DNA of 64,000 nucleotides from Chiloscyllium plagiosum (taxonomy: Eukaryota): positions 10,394,954-10,458,953 of the forward strand of contig NC_057755.1 in assembly GCF_004010195.1 (NCBI RefSeq), read 5' to 3'. Below, piece by piece: positions 15,462 through 49,643 of this stretch (within the stretch, counting starts at the first letter, position 1; every line of letters begins with the position of its first letter). The notes under the pieces are model-generated. The model had not been told where the DNA came from and made no database searches. It saw nothing but the letters and a program-made list of their open reading frames with translations. Position numbers and translations under genes: made by a program.

Positions 15462-16058
15462 CAGCAACTGTAATTATTCCAAATATTCAGGGATGATGGG
15501 TCGTGCTTCTACTCATCCTATAAGAAACGTTTGCTAATATTGAGGCACATCATTGAATGTTGAGCTGTTTCATCTCCACTCTTACTAAAATACATGATTC
15601 TGAAGGGAATAATCAGGATGAATGCTAATAAGATTAGGAGCGAGAGTGATGATAAAATTAACAAAGCGGTATGAAGTTAGGCAATAAGCATTTTTTTCTT
15701 TAAGATGATTGAATTTTCTTTCCCACAGTCAGGTGGTTCCTGTGGCATGGAATACTTTGTGGGCTTTGCTGTGTTTGTTTACCGAAATGGAAAAGTATTC
15801 AAGTATTTTGGGAAACGGTGCTTGAGAAAATAATAATATCAGCTATGGTCTTACTGAATAGTCCTCTCTTGGTCTTGAGCTGACATATAGAGAATTCCCT
15901 GCTGAGAGTCTAGTGGAATTGGAATATATTCTGACATTGTACGTGAACTGAAAGAAATTGAATTCCAAGCATCAGTAACATTTGGAAAATGCTCAGTTTA
16001 TTTGAACACCAAATAGTACAGTTCATAACATACTGTATAATTTACAGAAATCAAAAGA

Positions 16059-16155
16059 ATGGAGTCGGACATTAGCGCTTTCCTCTGGTTCATGTTTGCA
16101 GTATCATCATGCATTGCGACAGAAACAGACATTGGGATTTCCAACAATGAAAAAG
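16059..16155 (+). CDS. Candidate first coding exon A1 (exon 16048-16155): MESDISAFLWFMFAVSSCIATETDIGISNNEK, signal-peptide-like
   Basis: tttacag| acceptor, AAG|GTAAAA donor, 108 nt, phase 1, Kozak agaATGg; length, ATG position and splice sites all conserved in the paralog at 29153-29260. Confidence 0.55.
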
Positions 16156-16384
16156 GTAAAACCACACTTTTGCTGAAGATGTAGCTGAAATCTATTTCAA
16201 AGCATCCAAAAATGCAAATGTCCAAAATCATGAAGATAATTGCAAATATCTGTAATGCCTTTTTAAATGATTCTACCTTACAGCTAATTTGGCGAATGCA
16301 TTGTTTCTTCCTGGATGATTTTCTTTACAGAAGCTAACATTTCGTAGATATTTCTCACTTTCAAAATCCTTCTTTGTGTCTGTG

Positions 16385-17460
16385 GTAGCAGTGGTGGGTG
16401 GATGCGGGTGATTCCAGAACGTAGGTGAGTCCAAGCCCTAAAGTTATTGAACTCGATATTGAGTCCAGAAGGTTGCAGGGTCCCCAACCAGAAAATGAAG
16501 CATTGCTTTTCCAGCTTGTGCTGGACTTCGCTGGAGCCTGACACAGAGATATTGACCAGGTAACAGGGTGGTGCGTTGGAACGGCAGGCGGTTGGAAGTT
16601 GAAGGGTATTTTTACATGCAGAACTTAGGTGTTCTACAAAGGGCTAATCCAGTCTACGCTTCGTTTCCCTTATGTAGAGGAAAGCACATTTTGAGCAGCG
16701 AATGCAGTAGTCTCGATTCCGAGAACTGCTTCACCTCAAAAATATGTTTGGGCCCTGAGATACTGAAGAGGAAGGAGGTAAATAGTTATGTGTTGCACCT
16801 TTGGCATTTGCAGGAGAAGGTGTTGTGGAGCTTTGGATGGGTATTGGAAGTGAAGGGGGAGTGGTCTAAGGTGTCCCAGAAGGACCAGCCCTGTGGAAGG
16901 CAGACAAAGGAGGGGAGGGGGATCTGTGTCACATGGTGACATCTTGCTGGTGGTGGAAGAAATGGTGGCTGATGGTCTTCTGGATGTGGATGCTGTTAGG
17001 ATAATAGGTAAGGACAAGTGGAAGCCTGTCACTGTTGTGGGAACGACGTGGGGAGGGGGCAATGGGAGAAGTATGGGAGATGCGTCGGACCTGGTTGGGA
17101 ACACAGTCAACAACAGTGTTGGGGAATCCTCGTTTGACAATTCGGAGGCTTCCTTTTCTATGTTGTCCACATCAGAACATATGCGATGGAGATGGGGAAC
17201 TAGGAAAATGGAATAGAGACTCTACAGAAAGCAGGATGCAAGGATGCACATGTTCCTCTCCTTGTCATTTTCCCAACAGGATGCTATTAGTCCATGTACA
17301 CCTTACCCCCTTCCCCCATCTATTCTCTGCATAAAAACTGACATTTTGCTAGCTACTGTTTGTTCTGCGGATGGGTCACAAGATGTAAAATGCTAACTCT
17401 GTTCACGTATGCCGCCAAACCTGTTGGTTTTCTCCAGCAATTTCTCTTTCTCTTAAAGTT
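16385..17460 (-). mobile_element. Penelope-like element fragment
   Basis: QHKLEKQCFIFWLGTLQPSGLNIEFNNF (GIY-YIG C-terminus); inverted pseudo-LTR remnant ~17290-17450. Confidence 0.8.
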
Positions 17461-18060
17461 TGATTCCTCTTTCCTGGGGCAATCAATGTTATGCACATTC
17501 ATGGTCTAGCGGTGTTGCTGCCTTTTAATTCTATAAGCAGTGTTTGGGAATATTAAACGCATATCAGTTTAATGTTTGGAGGTTTCACCCTCAGTCTTAT
17601 TAAAAGCACATGATTCCGAAGAGAAACGACAGAATCAATAAGATGTTTAAACTCTTTAGATGTTCTGAATTTATGATAAACTCGACACTGCAGCATAAGA
17701 TTATTTTCTTCAAGACGATTGAATTTTGTTCACCAGCGGAAATTGGATCCTGTACCATGAAATATGTTCAGAGATTTGCTGTGCTTATTTATCAGACAGA
17801 AAACTAGTCAAGCAATTTGTGAAATGGAGCTTGAGGAAATAATAATGTCAGCTAATGTCTTATTGAATAGCGCTCTGTTGATCTTGACATGACAAATAGA
17901 GATATCAATGCTGACAGACCTTTGGTATTAGAATATACTGAATGTGGATATTGTGGGAGAATTAAAATAACGAGAATTCAGTGCATTAATAACATTTAGG
18001 AAATGCTCAGATGATTAATATTTGAAAACCAACAATGAAGCCATGCTCCATAATCTGAAG

Positions 18061-18165
18061 TAAACAAAATAATTAAGTGTGAAATGAGGGAATTCCTCTG
18101 GATCACGTTTGAAGCACTGTTATGAACAAAAAGAGATCTTGCCACTTCCAGTGTTGAAAAATGGA
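18061..18165 (+). pseudogene. Dead duplicate of exon A
   Basis: Aligns to A1/A2 but ATG>ATT, in-frame TGA, donor GT lost. Confidence 0.5.
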
Positions 18166-18847
18166 AAACTACTCATTTGATGAAGAATAGATGACATATT
18201 TTTCACACCATTCAATACTGCAAATATTCGAAAGCGTGAAGGTGATTGCAATGACAAGGAACACAGTTCTTATCGATGACTCTATCTTGAAGCTAATTTG
18301 ACAAACACATAATTTCATCCTGTATGCTTTTGTTTACAGAAGTTAACATTCACGTAAACATCCTCACTTCTGAAATTTTCGTTAGCGAATGCAATTCCAA
18401 AATATATGGAAGGTAAACCAGGTTGAAGTTTTCTTGAAAATATCATGTTATTTTGGGATGTAGTGTTACATTTCTGGACAAATGTGTTTAACTATGCATC
18501 ATCTTTTCCTTGCTGAAAATTTGTTTCTGCATCTCTCTGTGTGTATTTTTCTTTAGTTAGGATCTTTCAATCTCTCTATGTGTAGGGCTGTTTCCAAGAC
18601 GCCACGGATTTCTCAATATTACAGATGCAAATCCAATTCTGAAATATAAAGAAACTTCTGCCTCCCAATCGACCCATTGTTATGTATAATTGTTGCAAAG
18701 GGACTCCGAGATATTAAATCAAACCTGGAATCTGAGCTCGTTCAAGGTCTGGGATAAAATGAACAGATGAATCAGTCTGAATTAAATGTAAAAGTAAAAT
18801 AAACTAGATGGATGGCTACTGATTGAATGACGTTCTATGTTTTACAG

Positions 18848-19030
18848 GACCTGAAGCTACTGCAGGAAAGGGTGAAGTCAACATCATTTTGATGCTTGTT
18901 ATCATAGCATCTTACATACCTACAGCAATACGCTCTGAGGAACATTACTATTCAAAGCAAAAAGGACATCACAGAATTGCTTCTGAAGAAGATCCATTGC
19001 AATACCCTTTGCAAACAAATGATGTTAAAG
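18848..19030 (+). CDS. Candidate exon B1 (183 nt): GPEATAGKGEVNIILMLVIIASYIPTAIRSEEHYYSKQKGHHRIASEEDPLQYPLQTNDVK
   Basis: ttttacag| and AAG|GTACAG; phase 1-1, open, in frame with A1; paralog B2 differs by a net in-frame 12 nt. Confidence 0.5.
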
Positions 19031-19414
19031 GTACAGTGAATAAGAGAAGCATTAATTTTTTTCTCAAACTGTTTATAATCCTAAGCATCATTTCGATAAT
19101 TAACAGGAATCAAAAGATAGTCTATTTTGAGTATGCTCCTTTGCTCTTCTGTTTAACAGAATGTATCTATTTTTTCCTCTTAACAAATGAGGCACGCACT
19201 CACGTTTTACATTGAAATTTACATATAGAGGTACGTCAGCGTTGATTAGTTTTGTTGAGTGTGCAATTTCTATTCGACACTGGTGAGAAAGTAGCAGGCT
19301 ATGATATAATTTCGAAGTTGCAGTTTTGTGATTTATGCAATTCTTCAGTCTGACATTAAATTTACATGCATGTATGTCAACAAGTTCCGAAATAAGAAAT
19401 GAAATATATTTGAG

Positions 19415-20414
19415 ATTGTTTCTTTAGTTTTTTGTTCTGTTTTTATTTGTTGTAGGACATGAGCTTCACTGGCTGGCCATCATTTATTACCCACCCCTTG
19501 TTGAATTTAACAAGATGGTGGTGAGGTGCCTCCTTGCACACTGCAGTCCACCTGTTGTGGATTAACGACAATACCGTAGGGGAGGGAATTCCAGGATTCT
19601 GATCCAAAGAGAGTGCACAGGATGATGACATATGTCCAAGTCAGGATGGTCAGTGGCTTGGAAGTGAACTTGAAGTTTTTGTTGTTTCCATATATCTGTT
19701 GCTCTCATCCATTTAAATGGAAATAGTTTGCAGTTCAGAAGATATTATCTGAGGATCTTTGGTTAATTTCTATGGTGCATCTTGGAAATAGTATGTACTT
19801 CTGCTTCTGAGCATTAGTGGTGGAAGGAGTGGATGCTTATGGATGTGGTGCGAATCATGTGAGCTGCTTTGGTCTGGATGGTGTAAATTTTCTTGAGTGT
19901 TATTGGGACTGAACTCATCCAAGCAAGTGGCGAATATCTTATCACACTCCAGATTTGTGACATTTAGATGGTGGACAGGTTTTGGAGACTCAGGAGGTGA
20001 GTTACATACTGCAGTATTTCTAGCCACTAAACTATTCTTTTAGCCATTGTGTTTATGTGGTGATTTTCTGATTAGTGATAACGATCAAATATTTGATAGC
20101 AGAGGATTAAGTGATACGACACCATCGAATGTCAAAGGACAGTGTCGAGATTGACGAGATTTGTGATGGCCATAGCCTGGCATTTGTTTGGCACAAATGT
20201 CACTTGCCACCTGTTAGCCCAAGCCTGAATATTTTCCAGATCTTTTGTGCATTTGGTCATAGACTGCTTCAGTGTGTGAGAAGTTGTGAATGGTGTTGAA
20301 CATTGCACAATAATCGGCAAACAGCCCCACTTCCTACCATATTATGTAAGAAAGGGCGTGAAAAGGCAGGTGAAGTTGGTTTAGTATAGGATACTACCCT
20401 GAGATACCTTTGAG
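19415..20414 (-). mobile_element. Old CR1/L2-clade LINE 3' fragment
   Basis: DLENIQAWANRWQVTFVPNKCQAMAI; flanking TTTGAG direct repeat (19409-19414, 20409-20414); splits the 66-nt exon homolog of unit 1. Confidence 0.75.
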
Positions 20415-20785
20415 TGATGTAAATACAGATGTAAACGATATTCTGAAAGATAAGTGTCAAAATGTAAAGTGCTGAACGTGTTCTCATTACTCCCATAAAA
20501 AATACTCCAATTGGGGTACTGTTTTAAACAAGAATGAGAGTCATGGGTTACTTTCTGCAAACTGTAATGCAATTGGTGTGCAGGAATTCTAAGGCAAAAT
20601 AGAAATAATTGCTGAATTTATTGCTTACAAGTACGTCAGAAACCATTTAAACTAGAATTTTTTAAAAGTTTTATTACCTAAATCTATTTGAGATGATTAA
20701 TTTTCAATAAATGTAAGCAATGGCTGCAGGAGCATTTATAGTTTCAATTCAATCCATTTGAGTTCGCTCTTTGCTTTCTAATCAG

Positions 20786-20814
20786 AAAACGAAATCAGGA
20801 AAGAAATGCTGTAA
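20786..20814 (+). CDS. Possible terminal coding exon of unit 1 (ENEIRKEML*)
   Basis: Acceptor ctctttgctttctaatcag|, phase 1; paralogs (e.g. 32919-33001) do not conserve the reading. Confidence 0.25.
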
Positions 20815-21772
20815 GGGAAATCAAGTTCAAATGCTTAGAATGCAAAATCAGCGTAGATCCTGATGACTGGGGAAAGATACAAAAAAACAAACAGCCACAA
20901 TCTATTTAAAGGAATTATGAAAGAAAAATTGCCACTGACTTCAAAATGATAAGAAATTTTATATTTACATAAAACAAGATGAGGAGCAATCTTGTCTCAT
21001 TAGGGAATGACAGTGCGGTATTTTAATGACTATGGGGAAAGGACAGACATGTTGAACAATTCATTTCCTCATTATTTACAATTTAAAAATGCCATTTTGT
21101 GAAATATGAATTATCTTCCTCAGTTCGTCAATCACAAAGACAATGATAGGTCAAGCTATTTAGCAGCACGTGGAAGTTGTAGATATTGGTTCGCTTACAA
21201 CATTTGAAAAAACACTTGGAGATGTATATGAATAGAAAAGGTTCTGAGGTATATGAGCTGAACGCAGGTGAATGGGATTGGTTTAATTTGTGAAACGAGT
21301 TGGATCATAGCGTCTGTTTCTGTGCTGTATAATCATATGACTGTAACTGTTAATCATATGTCAGATCTGCGTAACATTTTATTTCTCCCCCTCTAACGCG
21401 ATATAAGAAACTATCAATGAGGTTCCTTCGATTTTTACATTGAATATAAATGTGATTAAAGCGTTGTTATGTTCCGACCCAGCATCAGGTCGTGAAATGT
21501 ATGTGCAGAAGATACAAGGCAAAGTGACAGGAAACATCAAATATTTATCTCAGGAATAGTAAGGGAAGGATAACCAGTAAGACATGTTTATTCCACGAAA
21601 ATACTGATTATATTTGGGTTCCATGGCAATCAGCTTTCATACACATTCTTTTTAAGTTACCTGTATAGTATTGAATGTGTGGACCAATTCAGAAAATTGG
21701 AAACAATACAGAAATGATGCGTTAGTTTATAATGAAAATTTCTGTCTGCAGGACGTGTTTCAGCCAGTTAAA

Positions 21773-24220
21773 CCATAAGACCATATGACATAGGAGCAGA
21801 ATTTAGGACATGCCACCATCGAGTTTGTTCTGCAATTCAATCATGGCTGATAGGTTTCAGAAACCCATTCTGCTGCTTTCTCCCTATAACCCTTAATCCC
21901 CTTGATCCTCGAGTACTAATCTACCTCAGTCTTAAACATACTCAATGACCTGGCCTCCACAGCCTTATGTGGCAGTGAACAGATTCCATAGATTCACCAC
22001 TGTCAGGATGAAGAAGTTTCTCTATATCTCCCTTCTACTTTCTCTATAAGGCTCTACCCTCGGCTTCTGTTCTCGGCTCTCAATGGAAAAGTCTTCCCAA
22101 CATTCACGCTGTCCAAGTCATTTAGTATTCTACAAGTTTCAATTAGATTCCTCCTCCCCATATCCTTCTAAACTCCATGGTATATAACCAAGAATCCTCA
22201 AAGGTTCCTCGTATGTCAAGCATTTCATTCCTGTGACCATTCTCGTGAAATTCTTCTAAACACAGTCCGGGTTCAGTGCATCCTTCCTCAAATATAGGGC
22301 CCAAAACTACACTCAATGGTCCAAATTTGTTCTGACCAGAGCCTTATAGAGTTTCAGAAGTACATGCTTGCTTTTATTTTCATGCCCTCCAAAATTAAAT
22401 TCCATCATTACATTTGCCTTCCTAACTACTGATTCAACATGTAAGATTACCGTGAGAGAATCTTGGACCAAAACTCCAAAGTCTCTTTGCACGTCCGACA
22501 TCTGACTTCTCCCCATTTAGAAAATGGTCCATGCTTCTATTCTACTTACAAAGTGCATGACCTCACACTTTCCCACGTTGTCCTCCATCTGCCACTTTTT
22601 TAACCTACTCTCTTGACCTGTCTGAACCCTTCTGCAAACTCTCCGCCTCTCCAATACTACCAGTTTCCCCACCCATATTTGTATCATCTGCAAAAACCCA
22701 GCCTGAATGCCGTCAGTTCCTAATCTAGATCATTAATGTATGAAGTGAAACGTTGTGGTCCCAACACTGAGCCTTGCGGAACACCGTTTGGCACTGGCTG
22801 TCATCCTCGGAACGATCCTCTTTTCCTCCACTGCCATTGTTCTACCAGACAGGAAAGCTTCTATCCAGTCTGGTACCTCGTCTCTGAACGATTGCCCTTA
22901 TCTTACTCAGTAGTCTTCGGTGTGGCACCTTGTCAAAGGCCTGCTTAAAGTACAATAGATAGCATCCATTAGTTCAACTTAGTCTTAACTGCTATTTACT
23001 TCGTCAAATAATTCTAGCACATTTCTCAGGCATGACCGCTCCTTGATGAAACCATGCTGATTTTGCCCTACTTTATCATACAATTCCAAGTTTTTAGAAA
23101 TCTCACCCTTGACAATGGATTCCAGGATCTTACCCACAACTGAAATTAGGCTGATGGGTCTGTAATTCTCCGTCTTTTGCCTCACTCCATTTTTAAACAG
23201 GGGTGCCATTTCCAGTCCTCCAAGACCCTCCCTGACTCTAGCGATTACTGAAAGGTCACCACTAACACCTCTACTATGTCTTCAGCTATATCGCTTAGAA
23301 CTCTGGTTTGTAGTCCATCTGGTCCAGCTGATTTATCCACCTTCAGGCCATCAAGTTTTTGTAACACATTCTCCATGATAATGGCCATAATACTCAGCTC
23401 TGCTCCCTCACTCTCTTCATGTTTTTGGATATTACTCATGTCTTGCATCGTGAAGACTGATGTGAAGTTATTATTCAGTTCCTCCACCGTTTCTTGTTGC
23501 TGACTACTATCTCTCCACTTTCATTATCCAGTGGTCTAATATCCGCTTTTGCTTCCCTTTTGCCCTATATGTATCTAAAGAAACTCTTACAGTCTTCTTT
23601 TGTATTATTGGTTCACTTACCCTCACGGTTAAACGTCTCCCGTCCTTTTTTGTTGCGTTCTGTTGGCCTGTATAAGCTTCACAATCCGTTTGTTTTTCGC
23701 TGCCCTTCGCCACACTACATGATTTCTCTTTTGCGTGCATGCTATCCTTGACTTTCTTAGTCAGCTATGGTTGCTTCATCCACCCTGCGCAATGTGATTT
23801 TTTTTTGCCTCAGGATGAATCTCTGCTGTGTCTCCTGGACCTCCTGCCACTGCAGTTCCAATTTCTTTCCTGCCAGGTTGCTTTCCCAGTTAATTCTGCC
23901 CAGCTCCTCCCTCATGCCTCTGTACTTGCCTTTATTTATCTGTAACACCCCTACCACTGATTCTGTTTTCTCCCTCTCAATATGCAAAGTAAATTCAATC
24001 ATATTATGGTCACTAACTTCTCAGGGTTCCTTCAACTCTAGCACCTTTATCAATTATGCCTCATTGCCCAACAATGAATCTAGTATTGCCTGTTCTGTAA
24101 GACCATAAGACGTAAGACCATAAGACATAGTAGCAGAAATGAGGCATTCAACCTGTCGATTGTGCTTCACCATTCAATCATGTTTTTGAAACCCATTCTC
24201 CCGCATTATCCAAGTAAGCT
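21773..24220 (-). mobile_element. Decayed CR1 LINE (second subfamily; CATAAGAC-type tail) plus a second tail at ~24100-24215
   Basis: ENYRPISLISVVGKILE, KVDKSAGPDGL, LLKLYKALVR remnants. Confidence 0.85.
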
Positions 24221-24221
24221 G

Positions 24222-26984
24222 GTGCCTGGTGCTATGATATTGTGGCCATAACAGAGATATGGGTTTCTCAGGGGCAGGAGTGGTTGCTGGATGTTCGAGG
24301 GTTTCGAGCATTTAAATAGAATAGGGAGGGGGGAAGGGGAGGGGGTGTAGCACTACTAATCAGAGAGGGTATCACACCTACAGAAGCTTCTATTGTCGAT
24401 GAAGATCTGCCTACCGAGTCATTATGGGTGGAAATTAGGAACAGCAAGGGGGCAGTCACCTCATTAGGGGTTTACGACAGGCCCCCCAAGAGCAACAGGG
24501 AGATTGAAGAAAGCATAGGTCGGCAGATTTTGGAAAAGTGTGGACGTAGTAGGGTTGTTGTAATGGGTGACTTTAACTTTCCCAATATTGATTGGAACAT
24601 TCTTCAAGCAGAAGATTTGAATGGAGCTGTTTTTGTAAGGTGTGTTCAGGAGGGTTTCCTAACTCAGTACGTTTACAGGCCGACGAGGAGAGAGGCCATT
24701 CTAGACTTGGTGCTCGGAAACGAGCCGGGGCAGGTATCAGATCTTCCGGTGGGAGAGCATTTTGGTGATAAGTGACCACAACTACCTCACATTCTACATA
24801 GCTATGGAGACGGAGAGGATTAGGCAAAATGGGAGGATATTTAATTGGGGAAGAGGAAACTATGATGCTGTTAGGAAGCATGGACTAAGAGCAATTGTTC
24901 CATGGTAGAGGCACTATAGACATGTGGACACAGTTCAAGGAACAGTTGTTGCGAGTGATGAATAAATATGTCCCTCTGAGACAGGCAAGAAGTGGTAAGA
25001 TAAAGGAACCTTGGATGACGAGAACGGTGGAGAGTCTCATCAAAAGGAAGAAGGTAGCTTACATAAGGTGGAGGAAGCTAGGGTCAAGCTCAGCTCTAGA
25101 GGATTACAGGCAGGCGAGGAAGGTGCTCAAAAATGGTCTGTGGAGAGCCAGGAGGCGGCATGAGAAAGGCTTGGCAAAGTGGATTATGGAGAACACAAAG
25201 GCATTTCATACTTATGTGAGGAATTAGAGAATGGTCAAAGAAAGAGCAGGGCCGAACAGGGATAGCGTAGGGAACTTGTGTCTGGAGTCTGTGGAAGTAG
25301 GGGAAGCCCTAAATGATTTTTTTGCTTCTGTCTTTACAAAGGAAATTAACTTTGTAGTGAATTAAACCTTTGAAGAGCATGCTGGACTGGATAGAGATTG
25401 AGGAAGCTGATGTACTGAACATTTTGACAAACATTAAAATTGACAAGTCGCCAGGCCCGGACCAGATTTGTTCTCGGCTGCTTTGGGAAACGAGAAATGC
25501 AATTGCTTCGCCACTTGCGAAGATCTTTTCATCTCGCTCACCACTGGAGTCGTACCTGAGGACTGGAGAGAGGCAAAGGTAGTTCCTCTCTTCAAGAAAG
25601 AAAACAGGGAATTTCCCGGCAATTACAGACCAGTAAGTCTCACGTCTGTTGTCTGCAAAGTGTTAGGAAGGATTCTAAGTGATAGGGTTTATGACCATCT
25701 GGAAGAGCATGACTTGATTAAGTGCAGTCAACACGGCTTTGTGAGGGGCAGGTCATGCCTCACAAACCTTATCGAGTTCTTTGAGGATGTGACTCGAAAC
25801 GTTGATGAGTGTCGAGCTGTAGATGTAGTGTATATGGACTTCAGGAAGGGAATTTATAAGGTTTCTCTTGGTAAGCTCATTCAGAAGGTCAGGAGGAATA
25901 GGATACAGAGGAAGTTAGCTGTCTGGATACAGAATTGGCTGGCCAACAAAAGACAGCGAGTGGTAGTAGAAGGAAAGTATCCTGCATTGCAGTTAGTGGT
26001 GAGTGGTTTTCCACATGGCGCTGTCCTTGGGCCTCTACTGTTTGTAATTTTTATTAATGATTTGGATGAAGGGATTGAAGGATGGGTCAGCAAGTTTGCA
26101 GACGACACAAAGGTTAGAGGTGTTGTTGACAGTATAGAGGGCTGTTATAGGCTGCAGCGGGAAATTTACAGGATGCAGAGATGGGCTGAGAGGTGGCAGA
26201 TGGAGTTCATCCTGGATAAATGCGACGTAATGCATTTTGGAAGGTCGAATTTGAAAGCTGAGTGCAGGATTAAGGATAGGATTCTTAGCAGTGTGGACGA
26301 ACAGAGGGATATCGATGTGCAGCTACATAGATCCCTTAAAATTGCCACCCAAGTGGATAGGTTGGTAAAAAAGCATATGGTGTTTTGGCTTTCATTAACA
26401 GGGGGATTGAGTTTAACTGTCGTGAGATCTTGTTGCAGCTCTATAAAACTTTGATTCGACCGCACTTAGAATACTGCGTCCAAGTCTGGTTGCCCTATTA
26501 TAGGAAAGATGTAGATGCTTTGGAGAGGGTTCAGAGGAGGTTTACCAGGATGCTCCCTGGACTCGAGGGCTTACCTTATGAAGAGAGGTTGACTGAGCTC
26601 GGACGTTTTTCATTGGAGAAAAGGAGGAGGAGAGGGGACCTAATTGAGGTATACAAGATAATGAGAGGCATAGATAGAGTCGATAGCCAGAGACAATTTC
26701 CCAGGGCAGAAATGGCTAACACGAGGGGTCATGGTTTTAAGCTGGTTGGAGGAAAGTATAGAAGGGATGTCAGAGGCGGGTTCTTTACACAGAGAGTTGT
26801 GAGAGCATGGAATGCGTTGCCAGCAGCAGTTGTGGAGGCAGGGTCATTGGGAACATTTAAGAGACTGCTGGGCATGCATAGGTCACAGAAATTTGAGGGT
26901 GCATACATGAGGATCAATGGTCGGCACAGCATCGTGGGCTGACGGGCCTGTTCTGTGCTATATTGTTCTATGTTCTATGTTCTA
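24222..26984 (+). mobile_element. 5'-truncated CR1 LINE ORF2 (APE + RT), frameshifted
   Basis: VVMGDFNFPNIDW, ILDLVLGN, NYRPVSLTS, FADDTK; (TTCTATG)n tail at 26965-26984. Confidence 0.95.
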
Positions 26985-27059
26985 ACCCTGGATCCTCTTG
27001 ACACTCAAGAACTCTATTTCAATCATACATATACTCAGTGACCTACCTTCCACAGCCTT

Positions 27060-28919: not shown

Positions 28920-29163
28920 GATTTATTAAAAATGTTTTGTTCCAGACAAGTAGGTTGTATCAGTGGGGTTAAAGCATAAATATTGTTTGTTGTGATTTAT
29001 CCACGATTAAGTTTGTGATGCTTCAAATTTTGTAAAACTGGCATCGTGGACAAATGAAATAACTGAAACTCAAGGCATCAGTAACATTTGGAAAATGCTC
29101 GGATGATAAACGTTTGAATAGCACCACTAATGTCATGTTCTACAATTTACAGCAATCAAGGCA

Positions 29164-29260
29164 ATGAAGTGGATAATGGGAGCTTCTCTCTACCTCACAA
29201 TCGCAGCTCTTTTATGCTTAGGAACAGAAATCGATTTTGCAACTTCAAACAATGAGAAAG
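29164..29260 (+). CDS. Candidate first coding exon A2 (exon 29153-29260): MKWIMGASLYLTIAALLCLGTEIDFATSNNEK, signal-peptide-like
   Basis: tttacag| acceptor, AAG|GTAGAT donor, 108 nt, phase 1; n-region MK plus hydrophobic core; shares C18, TE-D and SNNEK with A1. Confidence 0.55.
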
Positions 29261-29957: not shown

Positions 29958-30128
29958 GACAGGACGCTACTGTGGGAAAGGGTGACGTAAACATCATTTG
30001 TTTGATTATTATCATCGTAAATTTCATGCTCGTTGAGATTTGTCACTATTCAAAGCAAACACGAAATCACAGAAACTATTGTGAAGAAATGCCATTCCAA
30101 CAATCCTGGCAAAGACATGAAGCTGAAG
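29958..30128 (+). CDS. Candidate exon B2 (171 nt): GQDATVGKGDVNIICLIIIIVNFMLVEICHYSKQTRNHRNYCEEMPFQQSWQRHEAE
   Basis: ttttttatatag| and AAG|GTACAA; phase 1-1, open, in frame with A2. Confidence 0.5.
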
Positions 30129-30736
30129 GTACAAATAGTGAAATAAGGGCAATATTAACTTTTCTCAATCTGTTTATTCTCCGAAGCCGCCTTTACATAA
30201 CAAACTGGCAGCTAAAATCTGGTCTATTTTGAGTACATGTGGTACAATTATTCCCAAACCTTGTTTGACAGCATGTATATTTGCCTCATGAAAAAGGCAC
30301 CACCGAAGTTTTTCCACATTTACAGTTACATAAAATGGGACATCATCATTGATTAGATTTTGCTTAGTGTATCATTTCTATTCTCGATTGCTGAAAAAGT
30401 AACAAAGTATGATATAACTTTGAAGTTGTAATTTTATGGTTCTTACAGTTGTTCAGATTGACAGTAATTTTGCAACCACTTATGCCAACATGTTATGAGG
30501 AAAGAATTGAACCACATTTGAGTGATGTGAATATTTGCATAACAATTATTCTGAAAGACAACTGTCAACATATAAATCGCTAAAAATATTGACACTGGGA
30601 AAAAAATCCTATTGGAGTAAACAAAGATGACAATCAGAACATTACTTCCTGCAAAACTGCAATGCGATTGGATTGCTGGAATTGCAAGGCAAGAAAAACT
30701 AATTGCTGAAATAATTGCTTACAAATATCTCAGAGA

Positions 30737-35416: not shown

Positions 35417-35482
35417 GATCTGAAGTGAGCACCCAAAAATCTTGGAGTGATTTCACTGCAGGCATAAATGCTACTCCGAAAG
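35417..35482 (+). pseudogene. 66-nt exon copy c1 (GSEVSTQKSWSDFTAGINATPK), acceptor mutated
   Basis: ttaacGG instead of ttaacAG; donor AAG|GTAAAC intact; frame open; an internal CTGCAG could give a 21-nt exon 35462-35482. Confidence 0.4.

Positions 35483-39123: not shown

Positions 39124-39127
<4 letters not shown>

Positions 39128-39191
<64 letters not shown>
39128..39191. repeat. (TA)n microsatellite
   Basis: Direct reading; paralogous to 44008-44052. Confidence 0.95.
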
Positions 39192-39195
<4 letters not shown>

Positions 39196-39534: not shown

Positions 39535-39600
39535 CTTCCGAAGTGAGCACTCAAGCATCTTGGTGTGATTCGACTGCAGACATAAAAGATATTCCGAATG
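39535..39600 (+). CDS. Candidate 66-nt exon c2 (ASEVSTQASWCDSTADIKDIPN)
   Basis: ttttaacag| and ATG|GTGTGT; only the phase-1 frame is open. Confidence 0.45.
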
Positions 39601-40084
39601 GTGTGTGTTAAAATGCAAATTGACGATTATCTATTGGAAATTGCAAACAAATAGACTTCAATTACAGCATTAAAAAAACATAATAACAGTTAGGATATTA
39701 CTTTTTGTAAAACTATTAGTGATTAGAGTGCAGGCATTGTCATGTAAAATATTTGCTGAATTCATTGCCCCCAATAATTTCAGAAACAATTCGGCATATT
39801 AACATTTAAGGTATTGTTTATTCAATTGTTAACCAAACACATGGCTTTGGTACCTGAAGCAAAGAACAAAAGGAGTGCAGATTCATTTTACAATTGTGGA
39901 AAGCACAGATGCACCGTTGTGATCTACTTTCCTTAATGTGAAAGTATGTGACTGAAGGGAAGCATTTAGATTGTCACTCAGTTCCTTCGAGATCGTTTTA
40001 AAATTTCTTACCTGGGAGTAAGAGCAGGAAGTACAACCTTGGAAGGGAAATCAATATCAAAAGTTTGCAAAAACAACGAAGATC

Positions 40085-41980
40085 CTGATGATTAGCAAAG
40101 GGTTAAAAAGGACCAGCAAATGGCGCCACAAAGTAGCACGTGGTTGTAAAAGGGAACAGATTAGGAAAAACGACAGGGACAGCAAATGATAAGCAACTGT
40201 ATAGTGAAATAAAACGAGCTGAGGAGCAATGATGGTAGAACAGTTGAAATTAATTTCTCAATATTCACAGTTGAATATGTATTTTTTTTAAACATAATTG
40301 CCTTCCTTCCTCGTTTTTTCATTCAGTAAGTCAAAGGGAGGTCAAAACACGCACGAACAATGACAACATTTGAAAGATATTTTGAGAATAACAAGAGTAC
40401 AAAAGGCTCAGAGAGATATCAGTGAACAGGCAAGGCGGGATGGTTTAAATGGTAATGTAGCTTGGACCACAGGGTCTATTTCTGTGCTGTGTGGCTCTAT
40501 GACATTCGGGGTTAATCGAAGGTCAGGACTACATAGCATTCAATTTCTTCCACTCTAATGGGATGTAAAATAGTGTCAATGAGCTTACCTGTCATGATAC
40601 AATGAATGTAAATTTAAGTAAAGCTTCAGTATGGTCTGAACGAGTATTAAAGTCCTGAAATGTAAAGCTGAGAGGAAATTGATACTACATATCATAAAAA
40701 AATTATCTGAGGAATAGAAAGGGCAGGATGACAAGTAAAGAAAGATTCTTTCTGAACAATATTGTTCTATTTCATTGCAATCAGTTTTTATTTCCATTTT
40801 TTCGAGTCATCTACATGGTGGTGAAACATCTGGACGGAATTCAAAAAATTAGAAACATTTACATTGTTTGATAATGAATGAGAAAGATTTTTGTCTGCTG
40901 GACTTTTGTGATATATTTCAATGGAGCAGTGCCAAATGTAGCAGAGCCAGAATGGTTTGAGATAATTCGATTAGATTACTCACAGTGTGGAAACAGGCCC
41001 TTCATCCCAACAAGTCCCTGATGATTAGTAAAATATTAATAAAAGGACCAGCAAATGGCGTCACAAAGCAGCACGTGGTTGTTAAAGGGAACATATCAGG
41101 AAACGTGTCAGGGACAGAAAATGATAAGCAACTGTATCCTGAAATAAAGCGAGCTGAGGAGCAATAATGGCAGAACAGTTGACATTCATTTCTCACAATA
41201 TTCACAGTTGACAATATATATTTTTTTAAATATTAATTGCCTTCCTTCCTCGTTTTATCATTCACGAAGTCAAAGAGAGATCAAAACATTCGACACCAAG
41301 AGGAAGTTGTACATGCACATACAATGACAACTTTTGAAAGACAATAAGAGAATAACAAGAGTACAAAAGCTTCAGAGAGATATGAGTGAACAGGCAAAGG
41401 GGGATGGTTTAAATTGAAATGTAGCTTGGACCAAAGTTTCTATTCTTTGCTGTGTGGCTCTATGAGCCTCGGGGTTAATCGAAGGTCAGGACTGCATTGC
41501 ATTGAATTTCTTCCACTTTAATGGGATGTAAAATAGTTTCAATGAGGTTACATATCATGATACAATGAATGTAAATTTAAGTAAAGCTTCAGTATGGTCT
41601 GAACGAGTATTGAAGTCCTGAAATGTAAAGCTGAGAGGAAATTGATACGAAATATCATAAAAAACTTATCTGAGGGATAGAAAGGGAATGATCGCATGTA
41701 AAGAATGCTTCTTTCTGAACAATATTGTTCTATTTTATGGCAATCAATTTTTATTTCCACTTTTTCGAGTCATTAACATGGTGGTGAAACGTCTGGACGA
41801 AATTCAAAAAATTGGAAACAGTTATGTTAGTTGATACTGAATGAGAAAGATTTTTGTCTGCTGGACTTTTGTGAGACATTTCAATGGAACAGTGCCAAAT
41901 GTCGCAGAGCCAGAATTGTTTTTTGATAATTAGATTAGATTATTTACAGTGTGGAAACAGGCCCTTCATCCCAACGAGCC
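40085..41980 (+). repeat. Recent direct tandem duplication, ~935-960 bp unit
   Basis: 40085-41017 vs 41018-41980, much more similar to each other than to other array units. Confidence 0.9.
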
Positions 41981-42243
41981 CACACCGACCCTTTGAAGAG
42001 CAACCCTCCCAGACCTAATCCCCTACATTTTCCCCTTCACATAACAGTATGGGCAATTAAACATAGCCAACCACCTAACCTGCACATTTGTGGACTGTGG
42101 GAGGAAACCGTAGCACCCAGATGAAACCGATGCTGACAAGGGGAGAATGTGCAAACTTCACACAGACAGTTGACTGAGGCGGAAATTGGGCCCGGGTCTC
42201 CACTGCTGTGAGGCAGCAGAGCTAACCACTGTGCCACCGTGCC
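41930..42243 (-). mobile_element. tRNA-derived SINE (HE1-like, elasmobranch)
   Basis: Reverse complement begins GGCACGGTGGCACAGTGGTTAGC (A box), degenerate B box, core TGTGTGAAGTTTGCACATTCTCCCC, CR1-like tail ending (CTAAT)n. Confidence 0.85.
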
Positions 42244-44007: not shown

Positions 44008-44013
44008 CATATA

Positions 44014-44052
<39 letters not shown>
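44008..44052. repeat. (TA)n microsatellite
   Basis: Direct reading. Confidence 0.95.
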
Positions 44053-44055
<3 letters not shown>

Positions 44056-44414
44056 ACTGTGGGAACATAAATAATCTGCAGTTCAATTCTTCTGTATTGA
44101 TTCGCCACTTTCAAACCAGAGGATGAATTCAAGCAAAAAAGATACAGTACGATAACAATACGTGCTGTTGTACATAAGCACGTTTTCAAAGTTTCTTGTT
44201 TCACAAATATAATAGACAGTCCTTTGAGGACAAGCTGAAATACAATTGTAGTATGCAAAATGGAGACTGACACTCCTTCACCCACTGTTGGAACTTGGGA
44301 ACAAAGAACTTCATTAAGCCTGTTGAGAACATGATTAATCTGTGAAGTTGTAATTTTATAAGTTGTGCGTTTTTTTCAGCCACCCAGTAATGTTACAAAC
44401 ATCTATCTTAACAG

Positions 44415-44480
44415 CTTCCGATGCCAGCACTCAAACATCTTGGCGTGATTCGACTGCAGACAGACGAGATCGGTCAAATG
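44415..44480 (+). CDS. Candidate 66-nt exon c3 (ASDASTQTSWRDSTADRRDRSN)
   Basis: tcttaacag| and ATG|GTAAGT; phase 1-1 open. Confidence 0.5.
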
Positions 44481-46852
44481 GTAAGTGTAAAGTATAAATT
44501 GCAAACACATAGACTCCAATTACAGCGTTTTCTTTTCAAAGATGACAGGACATTACTTTCTGTGCAAAAAAAAATGTGATTAGAGTGATTGCATTGAAAT
44601 GCAAAATTTAAATAGTTGCTTGATATAATGCACACAAGTATTTCGGAAACACTTTGCCTTCTTAATTTTTAACTTGTTGTTGACTCAATTGATTGCGTGG
44701 GATGACTAATTTAGGTCAATGTAAGCAATGACTGCAGAGAAGCACATAATTTGTCACTCAATTCCTTTGAGATTGTTTTCCAATTTCTTGCTTGAGAATC
44801 ACGGCAAAAAGGCATATTTTGTAAGGGAAACCAATTTCAGTAGTTTATTCGACCAATGCAAAAACAGTATCGATCCTGATGATTGGGGGGGAAAAAAGCC
44901 GAGCAAACAGCGCCACGAAGCCAAGTGTGCTCGTGAAAGGGATCATTTTAGGAAGCATGTCAAGTTCGTCAAATTACAAGAAATTTCATCGTGACATAAA
45001 GCAATGTTATGCGTAATGATGGCACATTAAAGACTCAAAATGTGGTATTTCCGATGACTTTGGAGAAACGACAGACCTTTTAAAATTACTTTCTCCCAGT
45101 AAATACAGTTGGAAATATCATTCTGTGAACCTTTACTTCCCTTCCTCCCTCATTTTATCATTCAGAAAGTCAAAGATAGTTCAAATCAATCAACACCAGG
45201 ACAAAGTTGTAAATGCAGGTAGAGTTCCGCCATTTGAAAGATATTTGGAGAGCTCCAAGAGTACGGAACATTCAGAGAGATCGGGGCGAAACGCATGCAA
45301 ACGGGACTGGTTTAGATTGTAATATAGATTGGATTAAATTGTCAGTTTCTGGGCTGCATGACTCAGTGAGTTAATGGAAGGTCAAGGCTGCGTAACATTC
45401 AATTCGTCCCCTCTAATGCAAATAAGATAAAGTCAGTGATGTTAGATGTCATTACACAGTGAATATAAATTTTAGTCAAGCCTCAGTACGGTCTGAACCA
45501 GTATCAAAACCTGAAGTGTAAGGACAAATTGACTACAGACGTGAGGTGCGTGATTTAACCAGTGGTAGTTAGAGCAGATGGGTCACTACATCGTCGGCAG
45601 GTAGAGTGGTTGAGAAACAGAACTCTGCAATGTTAACCTGAGCTGGTGGAAGGATTGAATGGTGGCGTCATTAAGAGATATGCAATCCACTGTGCTAACT
45701 GTGTGCATCACACATTCAACTGATGGTTAGGTCAGGGGGACAGAAAGTCGAAGAGAATATATTATCAACAAAAATAGAAATTGCTCGAAACGCTCGGTAT
45801 TTCTGATAGCCTGTGTGGAGCGAAAACACTGGGAACTCAACACTGGGATTGAGTGATTATTCCTCAGAACTGCACTGTGTCTTTAATACCTGAAGCAAAG
45901 AACAAAAGTAGTGCAGGTTCGTGTTAAATTGTGGAAAGCACTGATGCACAGTTGTGATCGACTTTCCCTTAATGTGGAAACATGTGACTCTCTAGGACAG
46001 GGTTACGACATGTATATTTGACAGACAGCAGAATGTTATGAATAAAAACAGAAGGACAGTATTCATTCAGTTCGAAGGCAACTGTTTTATATTGCACGAT
46101 AATATGATGACGAAATAGAGTGTGTTCAAAACTACCAAACCCCAGAGTTTGGGACAAAGTAGGAAATGAATCAACTTTGTGTGATTCAAAAACCCGCAGA
46201 AAACATGTTTTGAAAGGTAAGCGTGCAAATAAATTACTCAGTACCTTCTCAAAATGCACAAAAGTTTAACTAATTGTTGCTGTTATTATACAAAAACAAG
46301 AGTCAGCACAGAATGTTGTGTAAATATACTGTGTGTTGGGTATGTCCGAATCCGATGGCAAAGGGAAAATGTTATTTGGCCTTGCTCTTTGCAAGTGCTT
46401 CAATAAAGAAATGAAATCATAATTTTTTAACAAATTGTTCACAAGATTATATGACGTTTAATCATTAATTTGCAACAAATATACCTATATATAACTGCAG
46501 GAACATTAATACTCTGCAGTTCAATTCCTGAGTTGATTCTCCACTTTCAAACCAGAGAATGAATTCAGGAAAAAAATCAAGTTCAGAACGGCAATTTGAC
46601 ATGTTTTATTGCATAAGCACGTTTTCAAACTTTCTTATTCCACAAGTAGAGTACACAGTACTGTGAGGACAAGATTAAAAACTGTTGTGGCAAATGCAGT
46701 GTGAACTGATGCTCCCTCACTCACTGTTGGAACATCGGAACTAAAATACTTAATTGAGCCTGTTGAGATTGTGATTGAGCTGTGAATTTGTAACTTATGA
46801 GTTGTGTAGTTCTTCAAACTGAAATAAATTTTGCAAACATCTAATTTAACAG

Positions 46853-46918
46853 CTTTCGATGTGAGCACTCAAACATCTTGGAGTGTTTCGACTGCAGACA
46901 GAAAAGATATTTTGAAAG
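46853..46918 (+). CDS. Candidate 66-nt exon c4 (AFDVSTQTSWSVSTADRKDILK)
   Basis: tttaacag| and AAG|GTAGGT; phase 1-1 open. Confidence 0.5.
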
Positions 46919-47715
46919 GTAGGTTTTAAAATGCAAATTGTTCCCGACATTGCAAACAAGTAGACTTCGAATACATTTTTAAAATGGGATGACAGTCAGG
47001 ACGTTATTTTCTGTCAAAATATAATGCGTTTATAGCGCTGTAATTGTAAGAAAAAATAAATATAATTGCTGAATTTATTGCTTAAAACATCTTGGAAATC
47101 ATTCAGATGAGAAACTTATAAGGTATTGTTAACTAAATCTATTGAGGTGCCATGACTACTTTTGGATAAATGTGAGCAATAACTGCAGGGGCATTTAGTA
47201 TATAATCCAATTCATTTGAGTTCATTCTTCACTTTTTAACAAGAGAATGAGAACAGGAAGAAAAACTGACGTCAGGGAAATCAATGTCAAATTTTTCATC
47301 TACATATCCGAATATTACATCGCATCTGATGATTAGGAAAAGATTCAAAGACCAACAACAGCCAGAAATGCACTTACATGAGCTGATAAGCGGGAATATG
47401 AAAGGAAACTTGCCAGGGACATCAAAACGATAATAAATAACGTAGTTTTTTGAAGCTGGTTCATTAAAGATGGGCCATTATAGATGGCTACGGGGAAAAC
47501 ACAGAACAGTTGAAATTGCTTTGCCCAAATACTGAGTTTCTGATGTATCATTTTATAAAATATTAATGTTCCTCCTCCCACCTTTTTACGATTCAAGAAT
47601 GGACAGATATGTCAAAATTATCAGCAAAAAAAGGAGATTGTATATGCAGGTACAATCATAACATTTAAAAGACATTTGAAGAGTGATACGAATAGGAAAT
47701 GTTCAGAGGGATATG

Positions 47716-47777
47716 CCCTTTTTCCAGCACCACACTCTCGACTCCAGCCAACAACATCTGCAGTCCTCACTTTCTCC
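47716..47777 (+). mobile_element. ~60-bp PLE terminal fragment
   Basis: Matches 56765-56823; AGAGGGAT direct repeat at 47705-47712 and 47779-47786; absent from paralogous units. Confidence 0.7.
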
Positions 47778-48696
47778 GAGAGGGATGCCGGCCAAACACA
47801 AGCGAACAAACCAGTCCCAAAGTTTAATTTGCGAGGCAAGTTAGATCACAGAGTCTCTTTCGTGCTACATGACTCTTTGAGTCCAGATGATTATCATGGT
47901 CGTTGCTGTGTAACATTCTATTTCTCCCTCTCTAATGCGATAGAAGAAAGTATCAATGCAGTTACTTATTTCTAAACATTCAATATAAATTTTAATGAAG
48001 TTTTGTTATGGTTGAGCCCATCATCACGGCATGAAATTTAAAGTCCATAGGACACAAGGCAAAGGGACAGAAAATATCAAACATTATCAAAGGGGTAGGA
48101 AGGAAGTGAAAAAGAATAATAAATTTTCATTTGACTAAATTAGTACATTCTTCTGGGTTCCACGCCAATCATTTTTTATTCCAATTATTTATACTTTATC
48201 CATACAGTTTTAAAATTGCTGAAAGGAATTCAGGAAATTGACAACCGTTCAGACAGTTCACGATCAGTGATACTGAATGAGAATTTTTTTTTTGGCTGCC
48301 AGACTTTTGTGAGGCACATCAATGGAACAGTGTGAAATGTAACGGAGCGAGAATGGTTTGTGATAATACATTGAGGAAAGTTTTAAAGGGCGATGCAATT
48401 AAAAATAAATGACTACATTTGAAAGTATTACAATAATCAAACAATATCACTTTAATCACAAAATCGTCGCAGATGTGCCCTATCATTTGAGACTTAAGAC
48501 TGGTAGTGATACTTTGACGATGTGGGTCACGAAACCTCTGGCAGATCGAATGGTTGAGAAAGAGAGAGTTGCAATGGTAACCTGAGCTGGTGGAAAGATT
48601 GAATGGTGGCCTCATTAAGTGATCCCGAATCCAACTGAGCTAACTGTGTACATCACACATTCAATTGATTAATAGGTCAGATGGTCACAAATTCTG

Positions 48697-49078
48697 GAAT
48701 AGTGGTGCTAGAAGAACACAGCAGTTCAGGCAGCATCCGAGGAGCAGGAAAATCGACGTTTCGGGCAAAAGCCCTTCATCATAAATACAGGCAGAGCGCT
48801 TGAAGGGTGGATAGATAAGTGAGTGGAGGGTGGTGGTGGGGAGAAACATCCATACCAATCAACCACATCGCCCTGTGGCCCAACATTTCAACTCCCCCTC
48901 CCATTCTGCCGTGGACATGGATGTCCTGGGCCTCCTTCACCGCTGCTCCCTCACCACCCGACGCCAGGAGGAAGAATGCCTCATTTTCCACCTCGGAACA
49001 CTTCAACCCCAGAGCATCAATGTGGACTTCAACAGTTTCCTCATTTCCCCTTGCCCGACCTCACCCCAGTTCCAAACT
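48697..49078. mobile_element. PLE fragment with inverted pseudo-LTR
   Basis: HRPVAQHFNSPSHS...EEECLIFHLGTLQPQSINVDF on +; hammerhead motif on - at 48753-48782 with C3 mutated. Confidence 0.85.
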
Positions 49079-49577
49079 GTGTTTGTTCGAATTGGAAGAC
49101 AAGAGGACAGTGTAAAAGTTTTCCTTACTAATTACAAATTCTTCAGTAAGAAGTTGAAATCATAATTATTTTTAACAAATTGGTAGCTCGATTATTTTGC
49201 ATTCGATATTATTTTTTGAATACATTTATGCAGGAACACAAATCTGCAGTTGTGTTGATTCTCCACTTTCAAACTACAAAAGTAATTCAGGAAAAGTCAA
49301 GTACAGAACGGGAATCAATTTCACATGTTTGTATTACATAAGCACGTTTTCTAAATTTCTTGTTTCACAAACAGATTACACAGTCACGTGAGGACAAGAT
49401 GAAATGCAATTGTATTATGCACAATGCAGACTGATACTCCCTCACCCATGGTTGGAACCTTTGAACAAAGTACTTCATTGTGGTTGTTGAGAATGTGATT
49501 GATCTGTGAAGTTGTAATTTTATACGTTGTGTAGATATTCAGACACCCAGTAATGTTGCACACATTTATTTTAACAG

Positions 49578-49643
49578 TTTTCACAGTGAGCACTCAAACG
49601 CCTTGGAATGATTCGGCTGCAGACATAAAAGATATTCCAAACA
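49578..49643 (+). CDS. Candidate 66-nt exon c5 (VFTVSTQTPWNDSAADIKDIPN)
   Basis: tattttaacag| and ACA|GTAAGT; phase 1-1 open. Confidence 0.45.

What the first reader, a model, noticed from the sequence alone, without database searches (positions are those of the whole stretch)
16048..49643. Unrecognised multi-exon gene (or gene family) hidden in a tandem array: every candidate exon is phase-1 symmetrical
Seen: nine AG/GT-type candidate exons on + (A1 16048-16155, B1 18848-19030, A2 29153-29260, B2 29958-30128, c1-c5 of 66 nt each; c1 lacks its AG). All have lengths divisible by 3 and are open in phase 1, so any subset splices in frame. The ORF track shows only B1 and B2. Inference: A = signal peptide, B = tiny ectodomain plus hydrophobic or TM segment, c = repeated cytoplasmic modules. 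This would be a lineage-specific small type-I membrane or secreted protein with combinatorial splicing. I cannot assign it to any known family.
Basis: partly seen in the sequence, partly recalled or inferred. Interest (0 to 1): 0.85.

Follow-up and report, generated by a model that had tools for sequence, protein, structure and literature searches.

The report
Front end of membrane-anchored shark NLR
These exons are the front end of a bamboo-shark immune-sensor (NLR) gene: they encode a duplicated, likely membrane-anchoring segment and a string of short repeats predicted to clamp two chains together, so this sensor would sit on a membrane instead of floating free in the cell as NLRs usually do.

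Summary
The exons are real at the stated coordinates, but the gene is neither unrecognised nor an orphan. Eight of the nine exons give, letter for letter, the first 274 residues of RefSeq LOC122544087 (Chiloscyllium plagiosum, 'uncharacterized'). Its last exon, beyond the window, is the start of a NACHT exon. In C. punctatum, the orthologous model (B2 + 14 c-repeats) and a paralogue (A-B-linker-c-c) run on into NACHT-WH-HD2. So A + B is a likely signal peptide + 20-24-residue ectodomain + transmembrane anchor of an NLR, duplicated here and independently in zebra shark. Each c exon carries one motif fitting the published LC8/DYNLL binding rules (D-V-S-T-Q-T). The NLR has no PYD/CARD and a degenerate Walker B. 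In C. plagiosum all five annotated proteins stop 36 residues into the NACHT exon: a truncated decoy, a decaying copy or an annotation break. Exons are no more conserved than flanks (c: 76% vs 77/72%, dN/dS 0.94); only frame, length and splice sites look constrained. No RNA test was obtained. Verdict: new variant of a known kind, a type-I membrane-anchored vertebrate NLR with an exon-counted linker.

The parts
7530..7666 (+). Probable non-coding first exon (5' end approximate), donor GTAAGT at 7667
   Evidence: Matches the region upstream of A in the C. punctatum paralogue's draft model P0007 (7566-7659); donor seen; single copy in the window. Use as an exon is inferred.
16048..16155 (+). Exon A1: start codon at 16059, likely signal peptide
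   Evidence: identical to RefSeq residues 1-33; best 19-residue hydropathy 1.42; A1/A2 dN/dS about 0.36
18061..18162 (+). Decayed A copy: start codon and GT donor lost, 6-nt deletion, in-frame stop
   Evidence: Alignment; sequence
18848..19030 (+). Exon B1: short ectodomain end, likely transmembrane helix, cytosolic stretch
   Evidence: hydropathy 1.95
20399..20449 (+). 3' remnant of a decayed c exon after B1 (donor GT to AT; 5' side cut off by a repeat insertion)
29153..29260 (+). Exon A2: second copy of the signal-peptide exon, internal in the annotated chain
   Evidence: hydropathy 1.72
29958..30128 (+). Exon B2: second membrane-anchor exon, orthologous to the B exon that heads the NACHT-bearing model XP_072420838.1
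   Evidence: hydropathy 2.68
30492..30557 (+). Decayed c copy after B2 (both splice sites lost)
35417..35482 (+). c1: pseudo-exon, acceptor AG to GG, anchor T-Q-K, absent from all five annotated proteins
39535..39600 (+). c2: 22-codon repeat exon, weak anchor (T-Q-A)
44415..44480 (+). c3: repeat exon with TQT anchor, skipped in isoform X5
46853..46918 (+). c4: repeat exon with D-V-S-T-Q-T
49578..49643 (+). c5: repeat exon with TQT-P anchor; the next exons (a 19-codon c-type exon and the NACHT exon) lie beyond 64000

Best explanation
These exons are the 5' coding end of a bamboo-shark NLR (NACHT) gene whose N-terminus is a likely signal peptide plus membrane helix, tandemly duplicated here, followed by 22-residue repeats predicted to bind the dimerising hub LC8. 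Shown: the exon chain equals the RefSeq model; its last exon is the start of a NACHT exon; C. punctatum models join homologous A/B/c exons to NACHT-WH-HD2; there is no PYD/CARD; Walker B is degenerate. Inferred mechanism: A1 would direct ER insertion and be cleaved, leaving about 20 residues outside, B crossing the membrane and the rest in the cytosol. The second A-B pair adds two hydrophobic segments, so the tail would stay cytosolic whether A2 stays as a helix or is cleaved as an internal signal. Each c exon adds one TQT site; LC8 dimers would zip two tails into a ladder that pre-pairs the NACHT modules and sets their distance from the membrane, with exon number and skipping tuning valency. 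Lacking a death-fold domain and a canonical Walker B, the full-length form would act as a membrane-tethered sensor or scaffold that signals through a partner. In C. plagiosum the annotated products stop 36 residues into the NACHT exon, so this copy would most likely be a NACHT-less decoy able to co-dimerise through LC8 with full-length paralogues. Odds by step: 5' end of an NLR locus 0.92; membrane-anchored type-I family 0.8; truncation real in this species 0.55; LC8 binding 0.5; decoy function 0.25.
For: Exon chain identical to XP_043539039/41/43/44 over 274 of 274 residues, and to X5 with c3 skipped. Tail 37/37 identical to chiPu_0017939 just ahead of its Walker A. XP_072420720.1 (742 aa) = A-B-25 aa-c-c-NACHT (PF05729 E 1e-27), WH, HD2. 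XP_072420838.1 = B2 orthologue + 14 in-frame repeats + NACHT (E 7e-29), WH, HD2; a second annotation of that species also joins repeats to NACHT (chiPu_0017940). Closest solved structure NLRP3, E 9e-32. The A-then-B order and the B hydrophobic stretch persist in 7 of 7 cassettes from three species, at 29-45% identity between the main lineages; the paralogue's B helix scores 3.81 and ends in a Cys run and a basic stretch. TQT in 13 of 14 repeats of XP_072420838.1, 2 of 2 in XP_072420720.1, 3 of 4 intact window c exons (repeats counted by their distal half), against 0 [TVI]QT in 579 and 586 NACHT-side residues; flanking positions fit the rules in PMC6607443. Walker B reads EDLNQ where NLRP3 has DGFDE (role of these residues in PMC9633759).
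Against: The NACHT exon is not in the window and no genome was available: the link rests on gene models, and XP_072420838.1 is visibly rough (starts without A, holds two repeats read off-frame). The C. plagiosum tail matches the paralogue's NACHT start (36/36) better than the orthologue's (32/36), so the annotation may splice into a neighbour's exon. Exons are no more conserved than flanks; pooled c dN/dS 0.94; invariance of S-T-Q in the five window copies is not significant (P about 0.11). Repeats within one gene are recent copies, not independent evidence for the motif. The zebra-shark c exon has T-E-T, not TQT, and two of its three A copies are weakly hydrophobic (0.56, 0.88). Many TQT peptides do not bind LC8. 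Signal peptide and topology rest on hydropathy only; charge asymmetry across B is slight.
Confidence: 0.72

Rival explanations
1. Same origin, but this copy is a transcribed, decaying duplicate: the cassette and c exons were amplified by unequal crossing-over, are spliced because they kept good sites, and the product has no function.
For: Exon identity not above flanks, c dN/dS 0.94; 3 of 7 c-like and 1 of 3 A-like copies already dead; stop before NACHT in 5 of 5 annotated proteins; B1 and A1 less hydrophobic than in the single-cassette paralogue.
Against: No indels in five c copies (P about 0.05), open frames and splice sites kept; A1/A2 dN/dS about 0.36; A2-B2 is 75/89 identical and intact in C. 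punctatum, where the NACHT is open; the same multi-cassette build arose independently in zebra shark (bootstrap 100). Fast exon change is also expected under diversifying selection on immune genes (general knowledge).
Confidence: 0.25
2. The truncation is an annotation or assembly effect: the window gene encodes a full-length membrane NLR as in C. punctatum, and the RefSeq model ends on a partial or neighbouring NACHT exon.
Against: Both last-exon versions end at the same residue in 5 of 5 proteins; the zebra-shark multi-cassette model also lacks NACHT.
Confidence: 0.3
3. The NLR is an ordinary cytosolic one; A/B/c are upstream exons of a separate small gene or 5' leader that gene predictors fused to NACHT.
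For: All joins to NACHT come from gene models; no reads were seen here; e1-7857812 reached this verdict at another locus (unchecked).
Against: Three models from two annotation rounds and two species make the join in frame; without A/B/c the NLR has no N-terminal domain at all; the cassette is one homologous unit in three species, not a patchwork.
Confidence: 0.1
4. A stand-alone small type-I or secreted protein of an unknown family with combinatorial splicing.
For: The C. plagiosum and zebra-shark models are short, NACHT-less and have no Pfam family above cut-off; nothing in PDB or the Atlas for LOC122544087.
Against: Its last exon is a NACHT-exon start and every part has a homologue in NACHT-bearing models; no annotated isoform drops an A or B exon.
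Confidence: 0.05

Closest known systems
RefSeq LOC122544087, Chiloscyllium plagiosum (XP_043539039.1-045.1, 'uncharacterized')
   Same: The same exons, letter for letter over 274 residues, with c1 skipped.
   Different: The record names no function, does not note the membrane anchor, the TQT repeats or the NLR origin.
[quoted passage not shown]
   Same: Homologous A, B and c exons joined to NACHT-WH-HD2.
   Different: One A-B cassette and 2 repeats, or B2 and 14 repeats; open NACHT. Despite the name, no PYD, FIIND or CARD hit.
Vertebrate NLRP3/NOD-type NLRs; expanded NLRP-related family of whale shark (PMC8455134)
   Same: NACHT closest to NLRP3 among solved structures (E 9e-32); Walker A, sensor-1 and WH motifs align.
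   Different: No death-fold domain, at most one weak LRR hit, Walker B EDLNQ for DGxDE, N-terminal hydrophobic anchor. The passages and section 40 that I read describe NLRs as intracellular and mention no membrane anchor. Membership of that whale-shark clade was not tested.
Anthozoan transmembrane NLRs (PMC3879445, PMC5094078) and sea-cucumber AjNLRC4 (PMC8699970)
   Same: NACHT proteins with membrane helices; AjNLRC4 also lacks CARD and LRR and was shown on the membrane.
   Different: Anthozoan forms have 3-5 N-terminal helices with a gap-junction-like profile; AjNLRC4 has Ig ectodomains. Here: signal peptide, 20-24-residue ectodomain, one helix per cassette, TQT linker, in a vertebrate. Likely convergent (inference; homology not tested).
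Multivalent LC8 clients ASCIZ and KANK1 (PMC6607443, PMC12803091)
   Same: Tandem TQT-anchored motifs in a low-complexity linker; in KANK1, LC8 turns such a linker into a rod reaching out from the cortex.
   Different: Here one motif per exon, number varying 2 to 14 between genes and by skipping, in an integral membrane NLR; binding untested.

Membership tests
NLR (NACHT-LRR) | NACHT domain in the same reading frame, in the C. punctatum orthologue and paralogue models | tested here: met
   PF05729 E 7e-29 and 1e-27, above cut-off
NLR (NACHT-LRR) | NACHT domain in the products annotated for this copy | tested here: not met
   No NACHT hit in LOC122544087 X2; all five proteins end 36 residues into the NACHT exon; exon not in window. 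So: an NLR-derived gene, not a complete NLR as annotated.
NLR (NACHT-LRR) | Winged-helix and HD2 after NACHT | tested here: met
   PF17779 above cut-off in both models; PF17776 35.0 bits (cut-off 33.1) in the orthologue, 32.4 in the paralogue
NLR (NACHT-LRR) | C-terminal LRRs | tested here: inconclusive
   One LRR_6 hit below cut-off (E 0.011-0.025); models may be cut short
NLR (NACHT-LRR) | Walker A | tested here: met
   GEAGIGKS aligns with the NLRP3 P-loop
NLR (NACHT-LRR) | Walker B hhhhDGxDE | tested here: not met
   EDLNQ in both C. punctatum models; consensus from PMC9633759
NLRP / NLRC subfamilies (incl. the 'NLRP1 homolog' label) | PYD, CARD or FIIND | tested here: not met
   No such Pfam hit at E <= 0.1 in 742, 712 and 1129 residues
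Type-I membrane protein | Cleavable signal peptide (A) | tested here: inconclusive
   Hydropathy 1.4-2.3 in 5 of 7 A copies, 0.56 and 0.88 in two zebra-shark copies; no SignalP available
Type-I membrane protein | Transmembrane helix (B) | tested here: met
   19-residue hydropathy 1.95-3.81 in all B copies examined; prediction only
Multivalent LC8 client | TQT-type anchor with polar -4, large -3, non-aromatic -2 | tested here: met
   13 of 14, 2 of 2, 3 of 4 repeats; rules from PMC6607443; not met in the zebra-shark c exon
Multivalent LC8 client | Measured binding to LC8 | not testable with these tools
   No LC8 sequence came from any call
CD45/PTPRC variable exons (early lead, recalled) | PTP N-terminal family hit and FN3/phosphatase downstream | tested here: not met
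   No such Pfam hit; downstream exon is NACHT-type
Anthozoan TM-NLR clade | Homologous 3-5-helix N-terminus, same NACHT clade | not tested
   No anthozoan sequences fetched

The most novel reading that the evidence does not exclude
Sharks have a family of type-I membrane NLRs with no death-fold domain and a non-canonical Walker B, in which an exon-counted ladder of LC8 sites (2 to 14 or more) pre-dimerises the receptor and acts as a ruler and threshold dial; the membrane helices themselves, clustered by NACHT oligomerisation, may be the effector (resistosome-like), and NACHT-less copies such as this one, with duplicated anchors, are co-dimerising decoys that arose independently in bamboo and zebra sharks.
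Probability: 0.2. Interest if true: 0.88.

Novelty: new variant of a known kind. Interest (0 to 1): 0.66.

Why it matters
Vertebrate NLRs are treated as cytosolic sensors that signal through PYD or CARD; membrane-spanning NLRs were reported as an anthozoan innovation and later in a sea cucumber. A signal-peptide, single-pass NLR in a jawed vertebrate, hidden under names such as 'NLRP1 homolog' or 'uncharacterized', would change how the expanded shark NLR repertoire is read. The one-motif-per-exon TQT array gives a direct test of whether NLR activation can be tuned by LC8 valency, and the natural series (2, 4-5, 14 repeats; with and without NACHT) supplies the constructs.

Tried and rejected
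CD45/PTPRC variable exons (my first lead, from a recalled likeness of the signal peptide): no Pfam support, wrong downstream exon; the paper search for it gave nothing useful. Internal splice sites splitting B into smaller exons: the RefSeq chain uses B whole. RNA: no RNA holder listed. AlphaFold2 of the paralogue on a 4-row alignment: pLDDT 31.5, pTM 0.20, unusable, no fold search made. Atlas: nothing for LOC122544087; only generic NACHT clusters at 0.90-0.91 for the paralogue. PDB search with LOC122544087: one chance hit, E 0.11. Whole genome not held. Test for purifying selection on c exons: negative. The position table was built from repeats picked by the motif and is circular; one search recounted by the distal half. 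No complex prediction was sent. Not-in-print claim: full-text searches (shark/elasmobranch/chondrichthyan + NLR + transmembrane; DYNLL1 + NLR + TQT) listed no paper on a membrane-anchored shark NLR or an LC8-binding NLR linker; I saw listings and abstract starts, and the library lacks most subscription journals.


Full report
Observation. All 128 subsets that begin with A1 translate without a stop. They sit in a tandem array of roughly 2.4-5 kb units at about 65-75% identity. The ancestral unit is A-B-c: decayed c copies follow both B exons, and a third, dead A copy lies before B1. A probable non-coding first exon ends at 7666 and has no second copy in the window, so A2 has no visible promoter copy of its own.

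Is it more than chance? Partly. The five c copies show no gap in 10 of 10 pairs, against 23 gap spans in 516 flank columns (P about 0.05); neutral simulation keeps all five open in 14-26% of runs and the splice sites in about 15%. But exon identity is not above the flanks (c 75.9% against 76.6% and 71.6%), pooled dN/dS for c2-c5 is 0.94, and the invariant S-T-Q run is not significant alone (P about 0.11); only A1/A2 shows a low dN/dS (about 0.36). Constraint is on frame, length and splice sites rather than on most residues.

It is annotated. A search with A2 found RefSeq LOC122544087 of Chiloscyllium plagiosum and a C. punctatum draft model. Five proteins of 307-329 residues are on record; A1-B1-A2-B2-c2-c3-c4-c5 reproduces their first 274 residues exactly, and dropping c3 reproduces isoform X5. 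c1 is never used. All five keep both A-B pairs. That NCBI's alternative isoforms usually rest on RNA data is my own knowledge; I saw no reads. No RNA holder was listed and laying four runs gave no test.

What it is. The last 37 residues of the model are identical to a stretch of C. punctatum chiPu_0017939 that runs on into a Walker A motif, and that protein also has A- and B-like segments. A search with it returned XP_072420720.1: Met-A-B-25 residues-c-c-NACHT-WH-HD2, and, in the cluster of chiPu_0017940, XP_072420838.1: the B2 orthologue, 14 in-frame repeats, then NACHT-WH-HD2. The two draft genes share a contig length and have consecutive numbers, so they are probably neighbours. The nearest solved structure is NLRP3 (E 9e-32). 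The NACHT exon is not in this window. Zebra shark LOC125449490 is A-B-A-B-c-A-B without NACHT; its three cassettes form their own clade (bootstrap 100), so the anchor was multiplied independently in the two genera (7 cassettes, unrooted).

Anatomy. In the single-cassette paralogue, A looks like a signal peptide, followed by about 24 residues, a 22-residue helix (hydropathy 3.81) ending in three Cys and a basic run. In the window gene B1 and B2 score 1.95 and 2.68, A1 and A2 1.42 and 1.72. No PYD, CARD or FIIND is found, and LRR support is one sub-threshold hit. Walker A is intact; Walker B reads EDLNQ where NLRP3 has DGFDE. In NLRP3 each of these four residues matters for hydrolysis, and E306Q increased speck formation (PMC9633759, passages). 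The c repeat carries S-D-V-S-T-Q-T-S/P-W. PMC6607443 (passages) defines the LC8 site as a TQT anchor with a polar residue, often Asp, at -4, a residue at least as large as Val at -3 and no bulky aromatic at -2, and warns that many TQT peptides do not bind. Counted by their distal half, 13 of 14, 2 of 2 and 3 of 4 repeats have the anchor, against none in about 580 NACHT-side residues. The unused c1 has T-Q-K; the zebra-shark c has T-E-T.

How it most likely works. Shown: exon chain, homology, domain content. Inferred: A1 inserts the chain into the ER and is cut off; B spans the membrane; the repeats and NACHT face the cytosol. Adding a whole A-B pair adds two hydrophobic segments and keeps that orientation, whereas dropping a single A or B would flip it, which fits the isoform list where only c-type exons are skipped. 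LC8 dimers would string two tails together, as for ASCIZ and KANK1, where LC8 turns a disordered linker into a rod (PMC12803091, abstract and Introduction), so exon number would set dimer strength and reach. With no death fold and an altered Walker B, the full-length protein would be a tethered sensor or scaffold needing a partner. In C. plagiosum all five proteins end 36 residues into the NACHT exon, at the codon that is Tyr in C. punctatum. If real, this copy is a NACHT-less anchor-plus-ladder that could pair with full-length paralogues as a decoy. Against this, the tail matches the paralogue's exon (36/36) better than the orthologue's (32/36) and comes in two versions, so the model may have spliced into a neighbour; and the neutral-looking divergence allows a decaying duplicate.

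Comparison with the known. It works like a membrane NLR of the anthozoan or sea-cucumber kind (PMC3879445, PMC5094078, PMC8699970, passages) but with a different anchor. By membership, the C. punctatum relatives are NACHT-WH-HD2 proteins that fail the death-fold and Walker B criteria and are unresolved for LRRs; the annotated product of this copy is NLR-derived, not a complete NLR. The whale-shark genome paper (PMC8455134, passages and section 40) reports an expanded NLRP-related family without mention of membrane anchors in what I read; the grey bamboo shark transcriptome paper (PMC4067322, passages) names only NOD1/NOD2. PMC12057147 was read in passages. No supplements were read; domain tables there could list such anchors. 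Searches listed no paper on this build.

Earlier notes of this scan. e1-8029217 describes a TM-NLR 135 kb downstream on the same piece and says the build is common in shark and ray models; I saw it after reaching my reading (statement) and confirmed the build only in Chiloscyllium. e1-7857812 rejected an anchor at another locus. e1-8029179 reports a CARD-tailed NLR 317 kb upstream, a possible partner, unchecked. None mentions LC8.

Verdict. Observation confirmed; interpretation partly right. New variant of a known kind: the 5' end of a type-I membrane-anchored shark NLR gene with a duplicated anchor and an exon-counted TQT linker. Interest 0.66.

Noticed in passing
window 30128-30232: Reading through the B2 donor gives 34 residues and a stop; this is the same length as, and 17/34 identical to, the C-terminal tail of the zebra-shark model. 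It may be a conserved short isoform or just homologous intron; no AATAAA/ATTAAA before 30740.
   Followed up: partly
window 16068-16089: A DNA contig in run X1 differs from A1 at four places at depth 26 (unique stretches 6-14); two changes give the residues of the C. punctatum paralogue, pointing to further A-type exons in the genome.
   Followed up: no
window 7440-7670: TATA-like and CCGGAAGT (ETS-like, label recalled) motifs ahead of the probable first exon, which holds several upstream ATGs.
   Followed up: no
window 21800-27000 and 52600-55400: Two decayed LINE copies, 84% identical over 2.8 kb (24227-26986 vs 52608-55417), one inside the B1-A2 intron.
   Followed up: no
window 55900-60400 (minus strand): Fragments of a decayed Gypsy-like LTR retrotransposon (gag-, RNase H- and integrase-like ORF pieces by eye).
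   Followed up: no
window 40074-41981: A recent 976-nt tandem duplication (86% identical) within the array that carries no c exon.
   Followed up: no
XP_072420720.1 vs XP_072420838.1: The two C. punctatum NACHT halves are 525/579 identical while A-B cassettes are only 33/89 identical between the paralogue and the A2-B2 type: the anchor diverges far faster, or the NACHT exon is homogenised by conversion.
   Followed up: no
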